Below are positions 12,866-20,964 of a stretch of DNA of 32,000 bases, one piece after another. Location of the stretch: contig JAITUM010000172.1 in NCBI GenBank assembly GCA_031286305.1, positions 1-32,000 on the forward strand, given 5' to 3'. Positions within the stretch are counted from its first letter, which is position 1. Each line of letters opens with the position of its first letter. The stretch is from Candidatus Fibrimonadaceae bacterium (lineage in GTDB: Bacteria > Fibrobacterota > Fibrobacteria > Fibrobacterales > Fibrobacteraceae). A program made the translations under genes and the position numbers. The notes below the pieces were generated by a model. The model did not search any database. It was not told the origin of the DNA and saw nothing but the letters and a program-made list of their open reading frames with translations.

Positions 12866-13131
12866 ACCCGAAATTGAAATGCTTAATGTTTTTATTTTTA
12901 GTTTTTTTTTTACTAAACTGAATGAGAGCAAAAAGCACGCCAAAATAGACAGGCGGAAAAGGGAATCGATTTTTTTTCATATTATTTTTTATTCCATGCT
13001 ACTACATAAAAAATTTTTCTATTCAGAAAACCATCTGAAAAAAACCTAGAATTTTGTCATGCTTTTTGCAAACCACTACAGGGGATATTATAAATGTTTT
13101 CAATTATTCAAAATAATGATAAATATTAAAC

Positions 13132-13177
13132 TTTTCCCTGAACTGCCCATAATAGGGTGAAGGCAGTTCAGGGAAAA
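13132..13177. promoter_or_regulatory. Perfect 16-bp stem / 14-nt loop hairpin (candidate packaging signal, complementary-strand origin or recombination site)
   Basis: ttttccctgaactgcc (13132-13147) pairs perfectly with ggcagttcagggaaaa (13162-13177). No U-run follows on either strand, so it is not a classical terminator. Confidence 0.5.
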
Positions 13178-13277
13178 ATTTTAATAGACCCGCACCGCCA
13201 ACAACGGCTACACTTTGCCGCCGATGACAAAGGCAAAGAAAACAAAAACAGTCCGAAAGGACAATAAGGAGGTCAAC

Positions 13278-13583
13278 ATGACTAAAAGGAACAAGCTAGA
13301 AATAGCACGGATAAACGCAAACCAAAGTATAGATTTTTTTCGAATGAAAATCTGTGATTTGGAAAAAATAGGAAGCATAGAACTAAGAGCAAACAATACA
13401 GGCTCGCTAGGGTATAAAAATCTATACTTTGATAACGAAGATATTGGAATGGTGCTAATGAATGTGGAAACCAACGAACCGGAAGAATACGCAAACATAC
13501 ATTTGCAATATATGCCAAATATATGCGTGTTATGCATAGCCTACGAAAAAGAAAGATTAAAAATATTAAGAAAGGAGGTGTAG
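13278..13583 (+). CDS. Hypothetical protein (101 aa), opposite orientation to the phage structural module
   Basis: ATG 13278 lies 6 nt after AAGGAGG, and the stop abuts the next ORF. No motif recognised. Confidence 0.5.
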   Translation: MTKRNKLEIARINANQSIDFFRMKICDLEKIGSIELRANNTGSLGYKNLYFDNEDIGMVLMNVETNEPEEYANIHLQYMPNICVLCIAYEKERLKILRKEV

Positions 13584-13584
13584 A

Positions 13585-13806
13585 ATGAGGATAGAGCGGA
13601 AATATAGCAGAGCCCTAGACTATTGGGATAGGGCACTAAACCACACAATGAATGGGAAAAATAAAATTGCCTTGTGCTGTGCAAAGGTGGCAGCATACTA
13701 TTTTGACTTCGTGGCGCAGAATGCCCCGGAACTGGAGGATAGCAAGAAGGCTAGAGCGTATTTTTTCCAAGTGTGCGATAGCTATGGCTTAAACTACAAG
13801 ACGTGA
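13585..13806 (+). CDS. Hypothetical protein (73 aa)
   Basis: ATG 13585 follows AAGGAGGTG and lies 2 nt after the previous stop, suggesting a coupled pair. No motif recognised. Confidence 0.45.
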   Translation: MRIERKYSRALDYWDRALNHTMNGKNKIALCCAKVAAYYFDFVAQNAPELEDSKKARAYFFQVCDSYGLNYKT

Positions 13807-13862
13807 AAAAAGCCCTCCCGCCCATGCTTCAAGATTTAACACAGGCGGGTAACAGATTTAAT

Positions 13863-14174
13863 TTACTTTTCACTTTTTGCTCGTGGATGACGTCCTAACG
13901 TATGAAAAACACCCTTTAGGTTAGGGTCGGAGCTACTACGCCATTTATGGGTATTGCCTCTATTATCTTTACCGCCACAATCTGCGACCGCTTTAGCGTT
14001 TTGTTCACTCTTTTTCATTTCAAGACAAGGAGCCGTGCCGGGGCTTATTACAATAAGCTCTCCGTTTTCACAGACCAAATAACAGCCGGTCACGGGGGGG
14101 CTGTGCCGTTCTTGTGCAAAGGCACAGACAACAAGCATAAAAGCAAAAACGAAAATAAAAGAAATATTTATCAT
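13863..14174 (-). CDS. Small secreted protein (103 aa), apparently leaderless mRNA
   Basis: Signal-like MINISFIFVFAFMLVVCAFAQ followed by four further Cys. There is no SD, but a consensus promoter places the predicted transcription start within a few nt of the ATG. Confidence 0.45.
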   Translation of the reverse strand: MINISFIFVFAFMLVVCAFAQERHSPPVTGCYLVCENGELIVISPGTAPCLEMKKSEQNAKAVADCGGKDNRGNTHKWRSSSDPNLKGVFHTLGRHPRAKSEK

Positions 14175-14182
14175 ATATACAT

Positions 14183-14211
14183 AATATACATTTTTTTTTA
14201 CGACATGTCAA
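14183..14211 (-). promoter_or_regulatory. Sigma-70-type promoter (TTGACA, 17 nt spacer, TATATT) with its -10 element 8 nt from ATG 14174
   Basis: Minus-strand TTGACA (14211-14206), 17 nt spacer, TATATT (14188-14183). Only ATGTATAT separates the -10 element from the start codon. Confidence 0.45.
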
Positions 14212-19973: not shown

Positions 19974-20020
19974 ACTCGGGAATATTCCTAACACGTGCAA
20001 AATATGAAAGCAGCGAAGCA

Positions 20021-20173
20021 TTATTTGCCTACTCCACGGTTAATACCCTTAATGGCTAAACGAATACCGGCAACACCAACCGCTACAAGAATAGCAATAG
20101 GAGCAACAACAGTAAGAACACCAATAAGATCGGTCTCAGCGGAAGTTACGGCAGAAGTGATAGCACTTACCAT
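20021..20173 (-). CDS. Major coat protein (50 aa, Pf3-like, no leader peptide)
   Basis: ATG 20173 follows GAGG. Translation MVSAITSAVTSAETDLIGVLTVVAPIAILVAVGVAGIRLAIKGINRGVGK has an acidic N-terminus, hydrophobic core and basic C-terminus. It lies directly upstream of the pIII-like gene and below the ORF-track cutoff. Confidence 0.7.
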   Translation of the reverse strand: MVSAITSAVTSAETDLIGVLTVVAPIAILVAVGVAGIRLAIKGINRGVGK

Positions 20174-20182
20174 AATTATACC

Positions 20183-20341
20183 TCATACATTGTGTAATGT
20201 GCTATTATTAGGTGTTTTAGCACTGTTAGCGGAAACTCTGAAAAAAACACTATCCGCACTATCAGGAACGTCTATTACGCTGCCCACAGACCTATAGTTT
20301 AAGTCCGATTTATTTAAACATTCACCGCAGTAAAAACTCAT
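20183..20341 (-). CDS. Small phage ORF (52 aa) with N-terminal CxxC
   Basis: ATG 20341 follows GAGG and the stop is 9 nt before the coat gene. Begins MSFYCGECLNKSDLNYRSVGS. No TM segment. Confidence 0.35.
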   Translation of the reverse strand: MSFYCGECLNKSDLNYRSVGSVIDVPDSADSVFFRVSANSAKTPNNSTLHNV

Positions 20342-20471
20342 GATAACCTCACAAAATAAACACGATAATGAAACAAGGTAACGCGAGTAATAAATATTAC
20401 CTTGATTTTGTAATATTTATCCTCGCAAAAGTTGCTAACGCTAACTACGAATTGAGAAAAACGAAAACGCA

Positions 20472-20606
20472 TTACAGCACCCCCGTCTCGTTATAAAAGG
20501 ACTGCAAAATAGCACGATGACCGCAATAACGACAGTAAAAAACACCCTTGTAAGAAGGGGGATTAGTATTAGCCGTGCCGCACTTTTGACAAAAACGAGT
20601 CCGCAT
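20472..20606 (-). CDS. Zinc-ribbon-like 44-aa protein
   Basis: ATG 20606 lies 1 nt after the stop of the gV-sized gene (TAA T ATG). Translation is MRTRFCQKCGTANTNPPSYKGVFYCRYCGHRAILQSFYNETGVL (CxxC...CxxC). Preferred over the overlapping TTG-initiated track ORF 20441-20626. Confidence 0.4.
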   Translation of the reverse strand: MRTRFCQKCGTANTNPPSYKGVFYCRYCGHRAILQSFYNETGVL

Positions 20607-20607
20607 A

Positions 20608-20880
20608 TTATTTCACTGCCTCCCAATTGACAACAGGTTGGTTATTAGCGCGGACTTTGCCGTCCTTGTCGGTATAACCACGAGGAACGATACTAACAAC
20701 AGGGCGAAACTTGTCACCCTCCTTAGCGGTAAAATAAGCACTACCCCAAACATCGAAGGGAATACCCTCCAAACGCATAGCGTAAACCTGTTTAGCACCC
20801 TTAGAGGTGTTAATTGTAGAAACCTTCTCGCAAACCGCGACTTGCTGCTGAGCCTTAGGGCTGTTTTGTTCTATTGCCAT
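20608..20880 (-). CDS. Putative ssDNA-binding protein (gV-like by size and position)
   Basis: 90 aa, first gene of the module, AGGAG upstream, beta-rich and Lys/Arg-containing. No sequence motif recognised. Confidence 0.4.
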   Translation of the reverse strand: MAIEQNSPKAQQQVAVCEKVSTINTSKGAKQVYAMRLEGIPFDVWGSAYFTAKEGDKFRPVVSIVPRGYTDKDGKVRANNQPVVNWEAVK

Positions 20881-20964
20881 GATTTTCTCCTATGGTTAAA
20901 ATGGCGGTTAAAACCGCAAACCATCGAAAGAAATCAACTAAAGGAAAGAATTTTCACCTTAGGA

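What the first reader, a model, noticed from the sequence alone, without database searches (positions are those of the whole stretch)
13064..20964. Inovirus-like filamentous prophage with a RepB/pMV158-type initiator
Fourteen same-strand ORFs between 14230 and 20880 carry Shine-Dalgarno sites and coupled junctions: TAATG at 18376-18380, ATGA at 16992-16995, TAG then ATG at 16285-16290, TAAGTG at 16174-16179, and TAA-T-ATG at 20604-20610. Their order follows the filamentous-phage blueprint. It starts with a 90-aa gV-sized protein, two small ORFs and a 50-aa leaderless coat (acidic N-terminus, hydrophobic core, basic tail, as in Pf3). Next come a 531-aa pIII-like protein (signal peptide, Cys-rich head, Ser/Asp and Gly linkers, C-terminal anchor), a multi-TM pVI-like protein and a Zot/pI P-loop ATPase with a TM segment. 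Membrane micro-peptides, a hairpin-rich non-coding region and Rep complete it. There is no secretin (pIV) and no tyrosine or serine integrase. Rep is of the plasmid RepB type (HDHD...HWHLLL...KHQY), not the Ff gII type.
Basis: partly seen in the sequence, partly recalled or inferred. Interest (0 to 1): 0.8.

Follow-up and report, generated by a model that had tools for sequence, protein, structure and literature searches.

The report
Filamentous prophage with bridge-RNA recombinase
A roughly 9.5-kb filamentous-phage (inovirus) genome is integrated in a termite-gut Fibrobacterota chromosome, and it appears to insert itself with an IS110-type recombinase steered by a small 'bridge' RNA encoded beside it, rather than with a classical integrase; this kind of phage is already catalogued, but the RNA-guided reading of its integration is new detail.

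Summary
Thirteen or fourteen co-directional minus-strand ORFs between 14230 and 20880 include a Zot/pI ATPase (PF05707, E=3e-36), a leaderless major coat (PHROG 1646), a pIII-like protein and a Rep_2/RepB-type initiator (PF01719, E=1e-11). The host is a termite-gut Fibromonadaceae MAG.

An IS110-family DEDD recombinase (11715-12668) lies on the same strand. In every relative whose contig reaches far enough upstream (eight loci including the window, recombinase identity 50-71%), it is the last gene of an inovirus.

Directly upstream (about 12850-12695) is a conserved RNA with two modules, each a stem, internal loop and hairpin (90% of cells paired; 16 of 26 pairs covary).
- **Left junction:** the first loop matches the host|phage junction (CCATACC-CT-CCTA, 20972-20960) exactly. 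This 13-mer occurs once in the window.
- **Right junction in relatives:** in 11 relatives the opposite loop strand matches the DNA flanking the right end (mean 5 of 7 variable positions against 2; 0 of 100,000 permutations).
- **Right junction in the window:** it lacks the expected donor end, through decay or misassembly.

The prophage therefore spans about 11470-20965. Rep_2 initiators and IS110 transposases in inoviruses are already catalogued (Roux 2019), and Neisseria Nf phages are a precedent. This is a new member of a known kind.

The parts
20964..21119 (.). Host-side repeat element. Two inverted arrays of GGGTAT(A/G)GGG heptamer-like units (21089-21119 and 20962-20988) flank a spacer of about 100 nt. 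The phage is inserted at the outer edge of the second array.
   Evidence: The inverted repeat is I4. Seven copies of GGGTATRGGG occur only here in the window, where 1.6 are expected. The Logan contigs of the same sample break at 21121 and 20993, which suggests a multi-copy repeat.
20958..20972 (-). attL, the host|phage junction. The minus strand reads CCATACC-CT-CCTAAG: left target, CT core, then the first phage bases.
   Evidence: The 5' strand of the first RNA loop (CCAUACCCU) is identical to 20972->20964. UAGGAG in the 3' strand of the second loop is the reverse complement of CTCCTA (20965->20960). The 13-mer CCATACCCTCCTA occurs once in the window with 0 mismatches. Homology with the left ends of L018 and L011 starts exactly here.
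20608..20880 (-). 90-aa first gene, presumed ssDNA-binding (gV-like) protein.
   Evidence: The assignment rests on position and size. A conserved 90-93-aa first gene is present in L004, L011 and L018. There is no profile or structural match.
20183..20606 (-). Three small coupled ORFs of 44, 44 and 52 aa. The first carries a CxxC...CxxC zinc-ribbon motif.
   Evidence: Weak zinc-ribbon hits appear. Homologous ORFs are present in L003, L004 and L018.
20021..20173 (-). 50-aa leaderless major coat protein.
   Evidence: phrog_1646 'major coat protein', E=2.4e-4, with residues 4-46 aligned to profile positions 37-79 of 81.
18378..20021 (-). 547-aa (or 531-aa) pIII-like adsorption protein with a signal peptide, a Cys-rich head, Ser/Asp and Gly linkers and a C-terminal anchor.
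   Evidence: Sequence features are. Homologues with the same layout occur in L003, L004 and L005. There is no Pfam or PHROG hit.
17938..18378 (-). 146-aa multi-pass membrane protein in the pVI position.
   Evidence: Position, and the stop/start overlap with pIII. It is conserved in L003-L005.
16992..17906 (-). Zot/pI assembly ATPase, 304 aa, with a P-loop and one transmembrane segment.
   Evidence: PF05707, E=3.2e-36; phrog_197, E=1.3e-54. It is no more than 36% identical to any deposited phage.
15263..16995 (-). A 235-aa membrane-anchored protein followed by small membrane or Cys-rich ORFs (36, 59-75, 48 and 116 aa).
   Evidence: The 235-aa protein is conserved in L003-L005. There are no family hits, and it is not a secretin.
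14983..15262 (-). Non-coding region upstream of rep containing a 21-bp hairpin (15013-15066) whose stem carries TACTACAC. This is a candidate replication origin.
   Evidence: Inverted repeat I8 and the sequence. The resemblance to the pMV158 nick sequence TACTACG/AC is from my own memory and was not tested.
14230..14982 (-). Rolling-circle initiator of the Rep_2 / RepB (pMV158) type, 250 aa.
   Evidence: PF01719, E=1.1e-11, above the cut-off. The motifs HDHD, HWHLLL and KHQY are present. Homologues occur in L003, L004, L005, L011, L018-L020 and L125.
13863..14211 (-). A near-consensus promoter (TTGACA-17-TATATT) followed by a 103-aa secreted protein, probably accessory cargo.
   Evidence: The promoter scores 11 of 12. 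The signal-peptide-like N-terminus is visible. There are no family hits.
13278..13806 (+). Two coupled opposite-strand ORFs (101 and 73 aa), presumed regulators such as a repressor.
   Evidence: Gene calls on L001. Opposite-strand ORFs occupy the same position in L003, L009 and L125. There are no family hits.
12695..12850 (-). Candidate bridge RNA made of two stem / internal-loop / hairpin modules.
- LTG: 12830->12821, CCAUACCCUU.
- RTG: 12806->12797, GCGAAAUAAG.
- LDG: 12755->12747, GUUGAGACU.
- RDG: 12726->12721, UAGGAG.
   Evidence: The region is conserved in 15 loci. RNAalifold finds 26 pairs, 16 of them with compensatory changes. Paired cells are 90.3% against 36-46% in slid controls, and the covariation score is 0.48 against at most 0.14, with 0 of 500 shuffles reaching it. 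The minimum free energy is -60.4 kcal/mol, z=-2.7.
11715..12668 (-). IS110-family DEDD recombinase, 317 aa. The true start is M41 of the 357-aa ORF.
   Evidence: PF01548, E=5e-15, and PF02371, E=1e-21. It is identical to an NCBI protein named 'IS110 family transposase [Fibromonadaceae bacterium]'. D12, E52, D94 and S239 are invariant in 17 homologues.
11472..11714 (-). Right-end non-coding region. It contains a conserved block with a hairpin (CTACC-TGTGA-GGTAG, about 11627-11642), an A-rich tract, and an outward-facing promoter TTGACG-17-TATATT (11512->11484).
   Evidence: Alignment with the right ends of relatives. The promoter scores 10 of 12. The same promoter-like block is present near the right end of every relative.
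11463..11478 (-). Presumed but atypical attR. The minus strand reads TATACCG-CT-TACTACC. Homology to other phages' right ends stops here, and the expected donor end ...GAGA-CT is missing.
   Evidence: CT+TACTACCC matches the reverse complement of RTG (CTTATTTCGC) at 7 of 10 positions. There is no GTTGAGACT-like sequence downstream of the recombinase.

Best explanation
What it is. This is an integrated inovirus of about 9.5 kb (window about 11470-20965, minus strand) in a termite-gut Fibromonadaceae (Fibrobacterota) chromosome. It lies between the proC-SPOR and rfbB genes.

Replication and assembly. The phage replicates by rolling circle with a Rep_2/RepB-type initiator. It assembles through a Zot/pI ATPase and has no secretin of its own, so it is presumed to use a host one.

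Integration (inferred from sequence; nothing here is experimental). Lysogeny is set up by the last gene of the phage, an IS110-family DEDD recombinase, guided by a bridge RNA of about 160 nt encoded just upstream of it. Following the IS621 rules:
- The first RNA loop reads the chromosomal target. LTG CCAUACC-CU corresponds to CCATACC-CT, at the edge of a GGGTAT-repeat element. RTG corresponds to CT-TA...
- The second loop reads the junction of the circular phage. LDG GUUGAGA-CU reads the right end. RDG UAGGAG corresponds to CT-CCTA at the left end.
- Recombination at the CT core inserts the whole circle.

Shown by comparison. The recombinase is a fixed terminal gene of this phage lineage. The RNA structure covaries. 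The guide strands match the observed junctions.

Further inference. A strong outward promoter near the right end would read across the circle junction into the gV operon only in the excised form, and into rfbB in the integrated form.

State of this copy. Its right junction lacks the donor end, so it may no longer excise precisely.
For: Phage identity.
- Zot, Rep_OBD and major-coat profile hits.
- Gene order is conserved in the IMG/VR relatives L003-L005.
- Host: flanking proC-SPOR is 64-71% identical to Ca. Fibrimonas / Fibrimonadales MAGs, and NCBI names the recombinase as from a Fibromonadaceae MAG.

The recombinase belongs to the phage.
- It is the last same-strand gene after Zot and Rep in L003, L009/L010 (which has a different, G2P-type Rep), L011, L018, L019, L020 and L125.
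- It has diverged about as much as Zot: 64% against 69% identity to L003.
- Nearly every homologue cluster sits on one to three contigs.
- Twelve long-flank loci carrying recombinases of only 36-41% identity have no Zot or Rep.

The RNA. Conserved structure with covariation.

Guide logic, using the rules taken from Durrant et al. 2024, PMC11208160.
- Window attL is a 13-of-13 composite match that occurs only once in the window.
- L011 LTG matches 10 of 10 and L018 LTG 8 of 10 at their own left junctions. In all three cases the junction lies 8-10 kb from the recombinase, on the far side of the phage, where homology between the phages begins.
- RTG against the right flank: 7-9 of 10 positions match in 11 relatives. 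The cognate mean is 5.0 of 7 variable positions against 2.04 for non-cognate pairs, and 0 of 100,000 permutations reach the observed sum. L125 adds an 8-of-10 match.
- The last 6 nt of the right end fall into four classes (GAGACT, AAGACT, AAAACT, GAAACT), each identical to that locus's own LDG.
Against: - The window has no canonical right junction. The expected GTTGAGA-CT-TATTT is absent. The proposed attR matches RTG at only 7 of 10 positions, a level that about 9% of non-cognate pairs reach at the variable positions.
- The contig may be mis-joined in the right end. The Logan contig of the same sample breaks at 11752, and L012 is a demonstrable chimera of one phage's recombinase with another's right end.
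- No circular form or empty site was found.
- Rfam has no matching family.
- In L011 and L018 the core reads GT at the left junction and CT at the right junction, so the exact crossover register is unsettled.
- The gV, pIII and pVI roles are positional only.
- There is no expression or activity data.
Confidence: 0.78

Rival explanations
1. The IS110 element is an independent insertion sequence that happens to sit beside, or to target, the prophage. The phage itself integrates by another route, for example the host XerCD recombinases as in CTXphi.
For: Roux et al. 2019 note that selfish and phage-domesticated transposases cannot be told apart by sequence alone. IS110 elements are site-specific and could repeatedly target a conserved phage sequence. 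The Logan contig breaks inside the 3' end of the recombinase gene, as at a repeat.
Against: - In the window, L011 and L018 the first-loop guide matches the junction on the far side of the whole phage, 8-10 kb away, not a site next to the recombinase.
- There is no second copy of the left-end or right-end motifs immediately around the RNA+recombinase unit.
- The recombinase is present in every relative with enough sequence, across two Rep types, with phage-like divergence.
- No dif-like site or direct repeat bounds 14.2-20.9 kb.
Confidence: 0.06
2. The element is a grounded, decaying prophage. It was integrated as described above, but a deletion of about 17 nt at the right junction removed the donor end, so it can no longer excise precisely. 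This deletion could be slippage between two CTTA repeats; compare L013, which reads TATACCGT-CTTA-TGTTGTAAGA-CTAA.
For: The right end aligns with L013 and L125 up to TATACCG and then lacks the 17 nt ending in ...AGACT that all 12 relatives carry. The sequence that follows (CTTACTACCC) still fits RTG at 7 of 10 positions.
Against: All phage ORFs are intact and coupled, which argues for recent activity. The anomaly could equally be an assembly chimera in a region conserved between co-resident phages, for which L012 is a precedent. Four-nucleotide repeats are weak evidence for slippage.
Confidence: 0.35
3. The element is not a virus but an integrated rolling-circle plasmid or other mobile element that carries a zot-like ATPase.
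For: The Rep type is shared with small Gram-positive plasmids (PF01719). There is no secretin, and no ssDNA-binding protein could be verified.
Against: - A major-coat PHROG hit.
- A pIII-like protein and a pVI-like protein in canonical order, plus small coupled membrane ORFs.
- Genome size within the inovirus range.
- Relatives are filed as viral genomes in IMG/VR.
- Rep_2 is a known inovirus replication family.
Confidence: 0.03

Closest known systems
Neisseria filamentous prophages Nf1-Nf4 / MDA phage (Kawai et al. 2005; PMC7058167)
   Same: These are inovirus prophages of about 8 kb whose terminal gene is an IS110-family transposase. They integrate at a multi-copy genomic repeat (dRS3) containing a CT motif, have no tyrosine or serine integrase, and depend on a host secretin.
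   Different: The host phylum differs: Betaproteobacteria there, Fibrobacterota here. The initiator there is of the Rep_trans/RIF type, here Rep_2. The gene order differs, with rep first there and rep after the morphogenesis genes here. Recombinase similarity was not measured. In the library I searched, no paper links those phages to a bridge RNA.
IS621 / IS110 bridge-RNA recombination (Durrant et al. 2024, PMC11208160)
   Same: - A DEDD + Tnp_20 recombinase of about 320 aa.
- An upstream RNA of 150-250 nt with two internal loops.
- The 5' strand of each loop has the sense of left target or left donor plus core.
- The 3' strand of each loop is complementary to core plus right target or right donor.
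- A CT core.
- A preference for repeat elements as targets.
   Different: - The mobile unit is a whole virus: about 8 kb of phage genes lie between the left end and the RNA, instead of the RNA sitting in the left end.
- A complete promoter lies in the right end, rather than a promoter split across the circle junction.
- Some relatives pair GU/AU at the core positions of the left-side guides.
- No Rfam family matches.
Catalogued inoviruses of Roux et al. 2019 and IMG/VR (L003-L005), and deposited inoviruses carrying IS110 transposases (Thermus phage phiOH16; human-gut 'Inovirus D_HF' genomes)
   Same: - Roux's protein families include IS110 transposases filed under 'Integration' (iPF_00037, 260 members) and Rep_2 RCR initiators (iPF_00199, 71 members).
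- One termite-gut inovirus species was linked there to 'unclassified Fibrobacteria'.
- L003-L005 share gene order with the window, with 57-69% Zot identity.
- Deposited circular inoviruses of 6.5-7.8 kb carry IS110 transposases.
   Different: The deposited phages' recombinases are only 30-34% identical. No prophage in a Fibrobacterota genome had been reported in 2019. None of these sources describes the guide RNA or the junction logic.
pMV158 RepB / Rep_2 plasmid initiators
   Same: PF01719 origin-binding/nuclease domain with HUH-type motifs (HDHD, HWHLLL) and a Tyr (KHQY).
   Different: There is no sequence-level match to the solved RepB structure at E<=1. The C-terminal half is unrelated. 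The origin has not been identified.
Pf3 and CTXphi-type inoviruses
   Same: A leaderless short coat as in Pf3. Zot is 29% identical to the Pf3 protein. There is no phage secretin, as in CTXphi (from my own knowledge).
   Different: Those phages are either not integrated (Pf3) or integrate through the host XerCD recombinases at dif (CTXphi). Here the phage carries its own RNA-guided recombinase.

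Membership tests
Inovirus (Tubulavirales) genome | Zot/pI-type morphogenesis ATPase | tested here: met
   PF05707, E=3.2e-36; phrog_197, E=1.3e-54.
Inovirus (Tubulavirales) genome | Small hydrophobic major coat protein | tested here: met
   phrog_1646 'major coat protein', E=2.4e-4. 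The protein is 50 aa with an acidic N-terminus, a hydrophobic core and a basic C-terminus. The statistical support is modest.
Inovirus (Tubulavirales) genome | Adsorption protein (pIII-like) and pVI-like minor coat in canonical order | tested here: inconclusive
   Position, size, signal peptide, linkers and anchor all fit, and the proteins are conserved in relatives. There is no profile match.
Inovirus (Tubulavirales) genome | ssDNA-binding protein (gV-like) | tested here: inconclusive
   No Pfam, PHROG or PDB hit. The AlphaFold model is all-beta at pLDDT 64.6, and the best Foldseek E-value is 0.4.
Inovirus (Tubulavirales) genome | Small genome (5-15 kb) of co-directional, tightly coupled genes with an RCR initiator | tested here: met
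   About 9.5 kb, with 13-14 coupled ORFs and a PF01719 Rep.
Inovirus (Tubulavirales) genome | Filamentous ssDNA virions released without lysis | not testable with these tools
   Needs microscopy or strand-specific coverage from the source sample.
IS110-family bridge-RNA recombination system | Recombinase with a DEDD RuvC-like domain plus a Tnp_20 domain with a conserved Ser | tested here: met
   PF01548, E=5e-15, and PF02371, E=1e-21. D12, E52, D94 and S239 are invariant in 17 homologues.
IS110-family bridge-RNA recombination system | Adjacent non-coding RNA with two stem / internal-loop / hairpin modules | tested here: met
   26 pairs, 16 with compensatory changes. 90.3% of cells are paired against 36-46% in slid controls, and 0 of 500 shuffles reach the observed values. 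Transcription was not tested.
IS110-family bridge-RNA recombination system | 5' strand of loop 1 has the sequence of the left target plus core at the left junction | tested here: met
   Window: 9 of 10 positions match, in one contiguous 9-nt stretch, at 20972->20964. L011: 10 of 10. L018: 8 of 10. All lie at the far end of the phage.
IS110-family bridge-RNA recombination system | 3' strand of loop 1 is complementary to core plus right target at the right junction | tested here: inconclusive
   Met in 12 relatives (7-9 of 10 positions; permutation test 0 of 100,000). In the window only 7 of 10 positions match, at an atypical junction.
IS110-family bridge-RNA recombination system | 5' strand of loop 2 has the sequence of the element's right end plus core | tested here: not met
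   Met in the relatives, where the last 6 nt of the right end are identical to each locus's own LDG in four sequence classes. In the window, no GAGACT follows the recombinase.
IS110-family bridge-RNA recombination system | 3' strand of loop 2 is complementary to core plus the first bases of the left end | tested here: met
   Window UAGGAG is the reverse complement of CTCCTA at 20965->20960. L011 and L018 match 5 nt at the equivalent place.
IS110-family bridge-RNA recombination system | RNA-dependent recombination activity | not testable with these tools
   Needs a plasmid or genomic recombination assay.
Rep_2 / RepB (pMV158-type) RCR initiators | PF01719 domain above the curated threshold, with metal-binding His/Asp motifs and a catalytic Tyr | tested here: met
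   45.3 bits against a cut-off of 24.6. The motifs HDHD, HWHLLL and KHQY are present.
Rep_2 / RepB (pMV158-type) RCR initiators | Cognate double-strand origin with a nick site in a hairpin | not tested
   A hairpin at 15013-15066 containing TACTACAC is a candidate. The comparison with pMV158 is from my own memory only.

The most novel reading that the evidence does not exclude
A whole lineage of Fibrobacterota filamentous phages uses a phage-encoded bridge RNA as a rewritable address label for lysogeny. A few base changes in one RNA loop move the phage to a new chromosomal site, and twelve relatives show twelve different, matching addresses. In addition, a complete outward promoter in the right end works as a topology switch: it drives the gV/structural operon only when the genome is circular, and drives a host gene (here rfbB) when the genome is integrated. 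This would be a natural RNA-guided recombinase that moves about 8 kb of viral cargo.
Probability: 0.35. Interest if true: 0.72.

Novelty: new member of a known kind. Interest (0 to 1): 0.5.

Why it matters
As filed, the finding is an ordinary though previously unannotated inovirus prophage. Its Rep type, its lack of a secretin and its IS110 gene are all already in the inovirus catalogues.

What the follow-up adds:
- It gives the first prophage-level anatomy for a Fibrobacterota inovirus.
- It offers a concrete, testable explanation of how inoviruses that carry IS110 genes choose their integration sites, a group that includes the medically relevant Neisseria Nf/MDA phages.
- It provides a natural panel of more than a dozen bridge-RNA/target pairs that already carry 8-10 kb of cargo. 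Such a panel could interest people engineering bridge recombinases for large insertions.

Tried and rejected
- **Rfam search.** A scan of 11300-21300 at E<=1 gave only chance hits of the 13128-13181 hairpin to miRNA-precursor families. No bridge-RNA family is in the library, or none is detectable.
- **First register for the donor guide.** I first read it as TTGAGAC-CT and searched for TTGAGACCTTATT, finding nothing. The relatives showed the correct register to be ...GAGA-CT.
- **Repeat D4 as att sites.** I first took the direct repeat D4 (11484-11533 against 14183-14232) for att sites. It is in fact two copies of an A-tract + TTGAC-17-TATATT promoter.
- **CTTATT in the right-end block.** The conserved block GTAAGCG-CT-TATTG matches the window's RTG at 6 nt, but the block is conserved in relatives whose RTGs differ. 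I rejected it as a junction.
- **Search for the circle junction.** The exact predicted junction gave 0 hits in IMG/VR. A degenerate family pattern gave 30 hits, all unrelated, with no Zot, Rep or recombinase.
- **Search for an empty site.** Exact-protein look-ups of RfbB with two alternative starts found nothing. The proC-SPOR relatives L007 and L008 are too diverged or too truncated to show the site.
- **gV structure.** The model was of low confidence and gave no significant fold match.
- **Accessory ORFs.** PADLOC, Pfam and PHROGs found nothing.
- **RepB by sequence against PDB.** No match.

Full report
**1. The observation**

All genes of the block lie on the minus strand. A Logan contig from run SRR14710892 (L001) is 100% identical to window 11752-20993, and its gene calls list 13 genes from the 90-aa protein to Rep.

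- 16992-17906 is a Zot/pI ATPase (PF05707, E=3.2e-36; phrog_197, E=1e-54).
- 14230-14982 carries the Rep_OBD domain PF01719, formerly Rep_2 (E=1.1e-11, 45 bits against a cut-off of 24.6).

The 50-aa protein hits the PHROG 'major coat protein' family (E=2.4e-4). The match covers only the mature part of the profile, which fits a leaderless coat.

The 90-aa first gene could not be verified as an ssDNA-binding protein. The pIII-like and pVI-like proteins have no profile hits, but they are conserved in relatives. There is no secretin, no tyrosine or serine recombinase and no tRNA.

**2. Host and relatives**

The flanking genes are proC fused to a SPOR domain, rho and rfbB.
- The proC-SPOR protein is 64-71% identical to proteins of Ca. 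Fibrimonas termitidis and a Fibrimonadales MAG.
- NCBI names the recombinase of this contig as from a Fibromonadaceae MAG.
- No deposited phage has a Zot more than 36% identical.
- IMG/VR holds three relatives (L003-L005, 57-69% Zot identity) with the same gene order.

**3. The overlooked module**

The ORF at 11715-12788 is an IS110-family DEDD recombinase (PF01548 + PF02371). Its real start is at 12668, giving 317 aa, identical to the NCBI protein.

It is not a stray insertion sequence. In every relative whose contig reaches far enough upstream, a homologue (50-71% identity) is the last gene, on the same strand, after Zot and Rep. These relatives are L003, L009/L010, L011, L018, L019, L020 and L125.
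- L009 has a different, G2P-type Rep, so the module spans two replication types.
- Divergence from L003 is 64% identity for the recombinase, 69% for Zot and 38% for Rep.
- Twelve loci with long flanks but only 36-41% recombinase identity carry no Zot or Rep.

**4. A conserved structured RNA**

The roughly 170 nt before the recombinase start codon are conserved in 15 loci.
- RNAalifold predicts stem / internal-loop / hairpin modules with 26 pairs, 16 of them with compensatory changes.
- On the same alignment 90.3% of cells pair, against 36-46% when partners are slid by 1-3 columns.
- The covariation score is 0.48 against at most 0.14, and none of 500 shuffles reaches the observed values.
- The window's own sequence folds into the same two modules (-60.4 kcal/mol, z=-2.7).

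This is the architecture described for IS110 bridge RNAs. In that system the 5' strand of each loop has the sense of the left target or left donor plus core, and the 3' strand is complementary to core plus right target or right donor. The first loop reads the target and the second reads the donor (Durrant et al. 2024, PMC11208160).

**5. The guides match the junctions**

In the window, the 5' strand of loop 1 (CCAUACCCUU) equals minus-strand 20972->20964 (CCATACC-CT). The 3' strand of loop 2 contains UAGGAG, the reverse complement of CTCCTA at 20965->20960. The composite CCATACCCTCCTA occurs once in the window with no mismatch.

The equivalent guide of L011 matches 10 of 10 positions, 125 nt upstream of its first phage gene. 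That of L018 matches 8 of 10 positions at the same relative place. Homology among the three phages begins exactly at these points: CTAAGGTGAAAATTC, CTAAGGCAAAAAA and ATAAGATAGAATTTC. The RNA therefore specifies a junction 8-10 kb from the recombinase, on the far side of the whole phage. This rules out an independent 1.5-kb IS.

At the other end, twelve relatives terminate 210-340 nt after the recombinase stop codon in ...(A/G)A(A/G)A-CT.
- The last six bases fall into four classes, each identical to that locus's own second-loop 5' strand.
- The ten bases from the CT onward match the reverse complement of that locus's first-loop 3' strand at 7-9 positions.
- At the seven variable positions, cognate pairs average 5.0 matches and non-cognate pairs 2.04. 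None of 100,000 permutations reaches the observed sum.

**6. The target**

The left junction lies at the outer edge of an inverted pair of GGGTAT(A/G)GGG arrays around a spacer of about 100 nt. Seven copies occur there and nowhere else in the window. The short-read contigs of the sample break at both arrays, which suggests a multi-copy repeat. Repeat elements are typical targets of IS110 elements and of the Neisseria Nf phages.

**7. What does not fit**

The window lacks the canonical right junction. Its second-loop guide (GUUGAGACU) predicts ...GTTGAGA-CT-TATTT, and no such sequence follows the recombinase.

The right end aligns with those of L013 and L125 up to TATACCG (11478->11472). It then reads CT-TACTACCC, which matches the first-loop 3' strand at 7 of 10 positions. 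That is suggestive, but about 9% of non-cognate pairs do as well at the variable positions.

There are two explanations:
- A deletion of about 17 nt between CTTA repeats has grounded the prophage.
- The MAG contig is mis-joined in a region conserved among co-resident phages.

The Logan contig breaks at 11752. L012 is a clear chimera, carrying the L011-type recombinase and RNA with an L021-type right end and flank. I could not decide between these two. No circular junction or empty site was retrievable.

**8. Expression logic (inference)**

The two best sigma-70-type sites in 11.3-15.3 kb are TTGACA-17-TATATT just after rep, ahead of a 103-aa secreted protein, and TTGACG-17-TATATT at 11512->11484, facing out of the right end.

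The second site is conserved 25-40 nt from the right terminus in all relatives. In a circular genome it would read across the junction into the gV operon. In the integrated state it points at rfbB, whose start codon is 63 nt further on.

**9. Comparison with what is known**

- Neisseria Nf/MDA prophages are inoviruses of about 8 kb ending in an IS110 transposase, integrated at dRS3 repeats with a CT motif.
- Roux et al. 2019 list an inovirus protein family of 260 IS110 transposases under 'Integration', a family of 71 Rep_2 initiators, and one termite-gut inovirus linked to unclassified Fibrobacteria. They state that no prophage was then known for that phylum.
- Deposited circular inoviruses (Thermus phiOH16 and human-gut 'Inovirus D_HF' genomes) carry IS110 genes 30-34% identical to this one.
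- In the library I could search, no paper combines 'bridge RNA' with 'filamentous phage', and the one paper containing 'bridge RNA' and 'inovirus' is unrelated.

**10. Verdict**

The finding is real and correctly interpreted as an inovirus prophage with a Rep_2-type initiator. By itself that is a new member of a known kind. The added value is the demonstration, by comparison of about 13 loci, that the phage's terminal IS110 recombinase comes with a bridge-type guide RNA whose loops specify the prophage junctions. The main open point is the atypical right junction of this particular copy.

Noticed in passing
window 11421-11512 (minus strand): The phage's outward-facing right-end promoter (TTGACG-17-TATATT, 11512->11484) sits 63 nt upstream of the host rfbB (dTDP-glucose 4,6-dehydratase) start codon, in the same orientation. 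The prophage may therefore now drive a cell-envelope sugar gene.
   Followed up: partly
window 12689-12706 and 14552-14569: An 18-nt direct repeat (17 of 18 identical; GTTTCAACGCTTGC[G/A]GGG on the plus strand) links the 3' closing stem of the candidate bridge RNA with a site inside the rep gene. A 14-nt exact match is unlikely by chance (about 0.02 expected). Its meaning is unknown.
   Followed up: no
L003:5268-5277: The first-loop target guide of relative L003 (AATAGCCGTT) matches 10 of 10 positions inside the start of that phage's own rep gene, followed by CT. This could be a self-target, a regulatory site or chance (about 0.01 expected).
   Followed up: no
L011, L013, L019, L020, L125, L127: -212 to -223 from the recombinase ATG: A sigma-54-type -24/-12 motif (TGGCAY-N5-TTGCW/TTTGT) sits just upstream of the candidate bridge RNA in six relatives, but not in the window, L003, L009 or L021-L025. 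This suggests different regulation of the RNA and recombinase in sub-lineages.
   Followed up: partly
window 12757-12765 against 11499-11507; L013 bRNA against L013:2140: The 9 nt just 5' of the donor guide match right-end DNA in the same sense. In the window this is GTTTGCCGA, lying between the -35 and -10 of the outward promoter. In L013 it is TTATACCGT, just after the -10. This may be a second donor-recognition segment or coincidence.
   Followed up: no
L012 (Logan SRR14710913) against L011 and L021: L012 carries the L011-type recombinase and RNA, but its right terminus and flank (CGTGAAA-CT-TCCACC) fit the guides of L021, not its own. It is either an assembly chimera across conserved right-end sequence or a natural recombinant between co-resident phages.
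   Followed up: partly
window 21160-22725 (minus strand): The host gene fuses pyrroline-5-carboxylate reductase (F420_oxidored + P5CR_dimer) to a long linker and a C-terminal SPOR peptidoglycan-binding domain. In the Fibrimonadales relative L008 the proC part is a separate 253-aa ORF.
   Followed up: no
window 13128-13181: A near-perfect 20-bp hairpin (95% complementary, 14-nt loop) lies between the opposite-strand ORF pair and the bridge-RNA region. It gave only chance miRNA-precursor hits in Rfam. It is possibly a bidirectional terminator or an operator.
   Followed up: no
window 22730-24427 (minus strand): The Rho homologue has an N-terminal extension of about 130 aa that is rich in Asn, Gln and Arg (for example [20 protein letters not shown]), ahead of the conserved core.
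   Followed up: no
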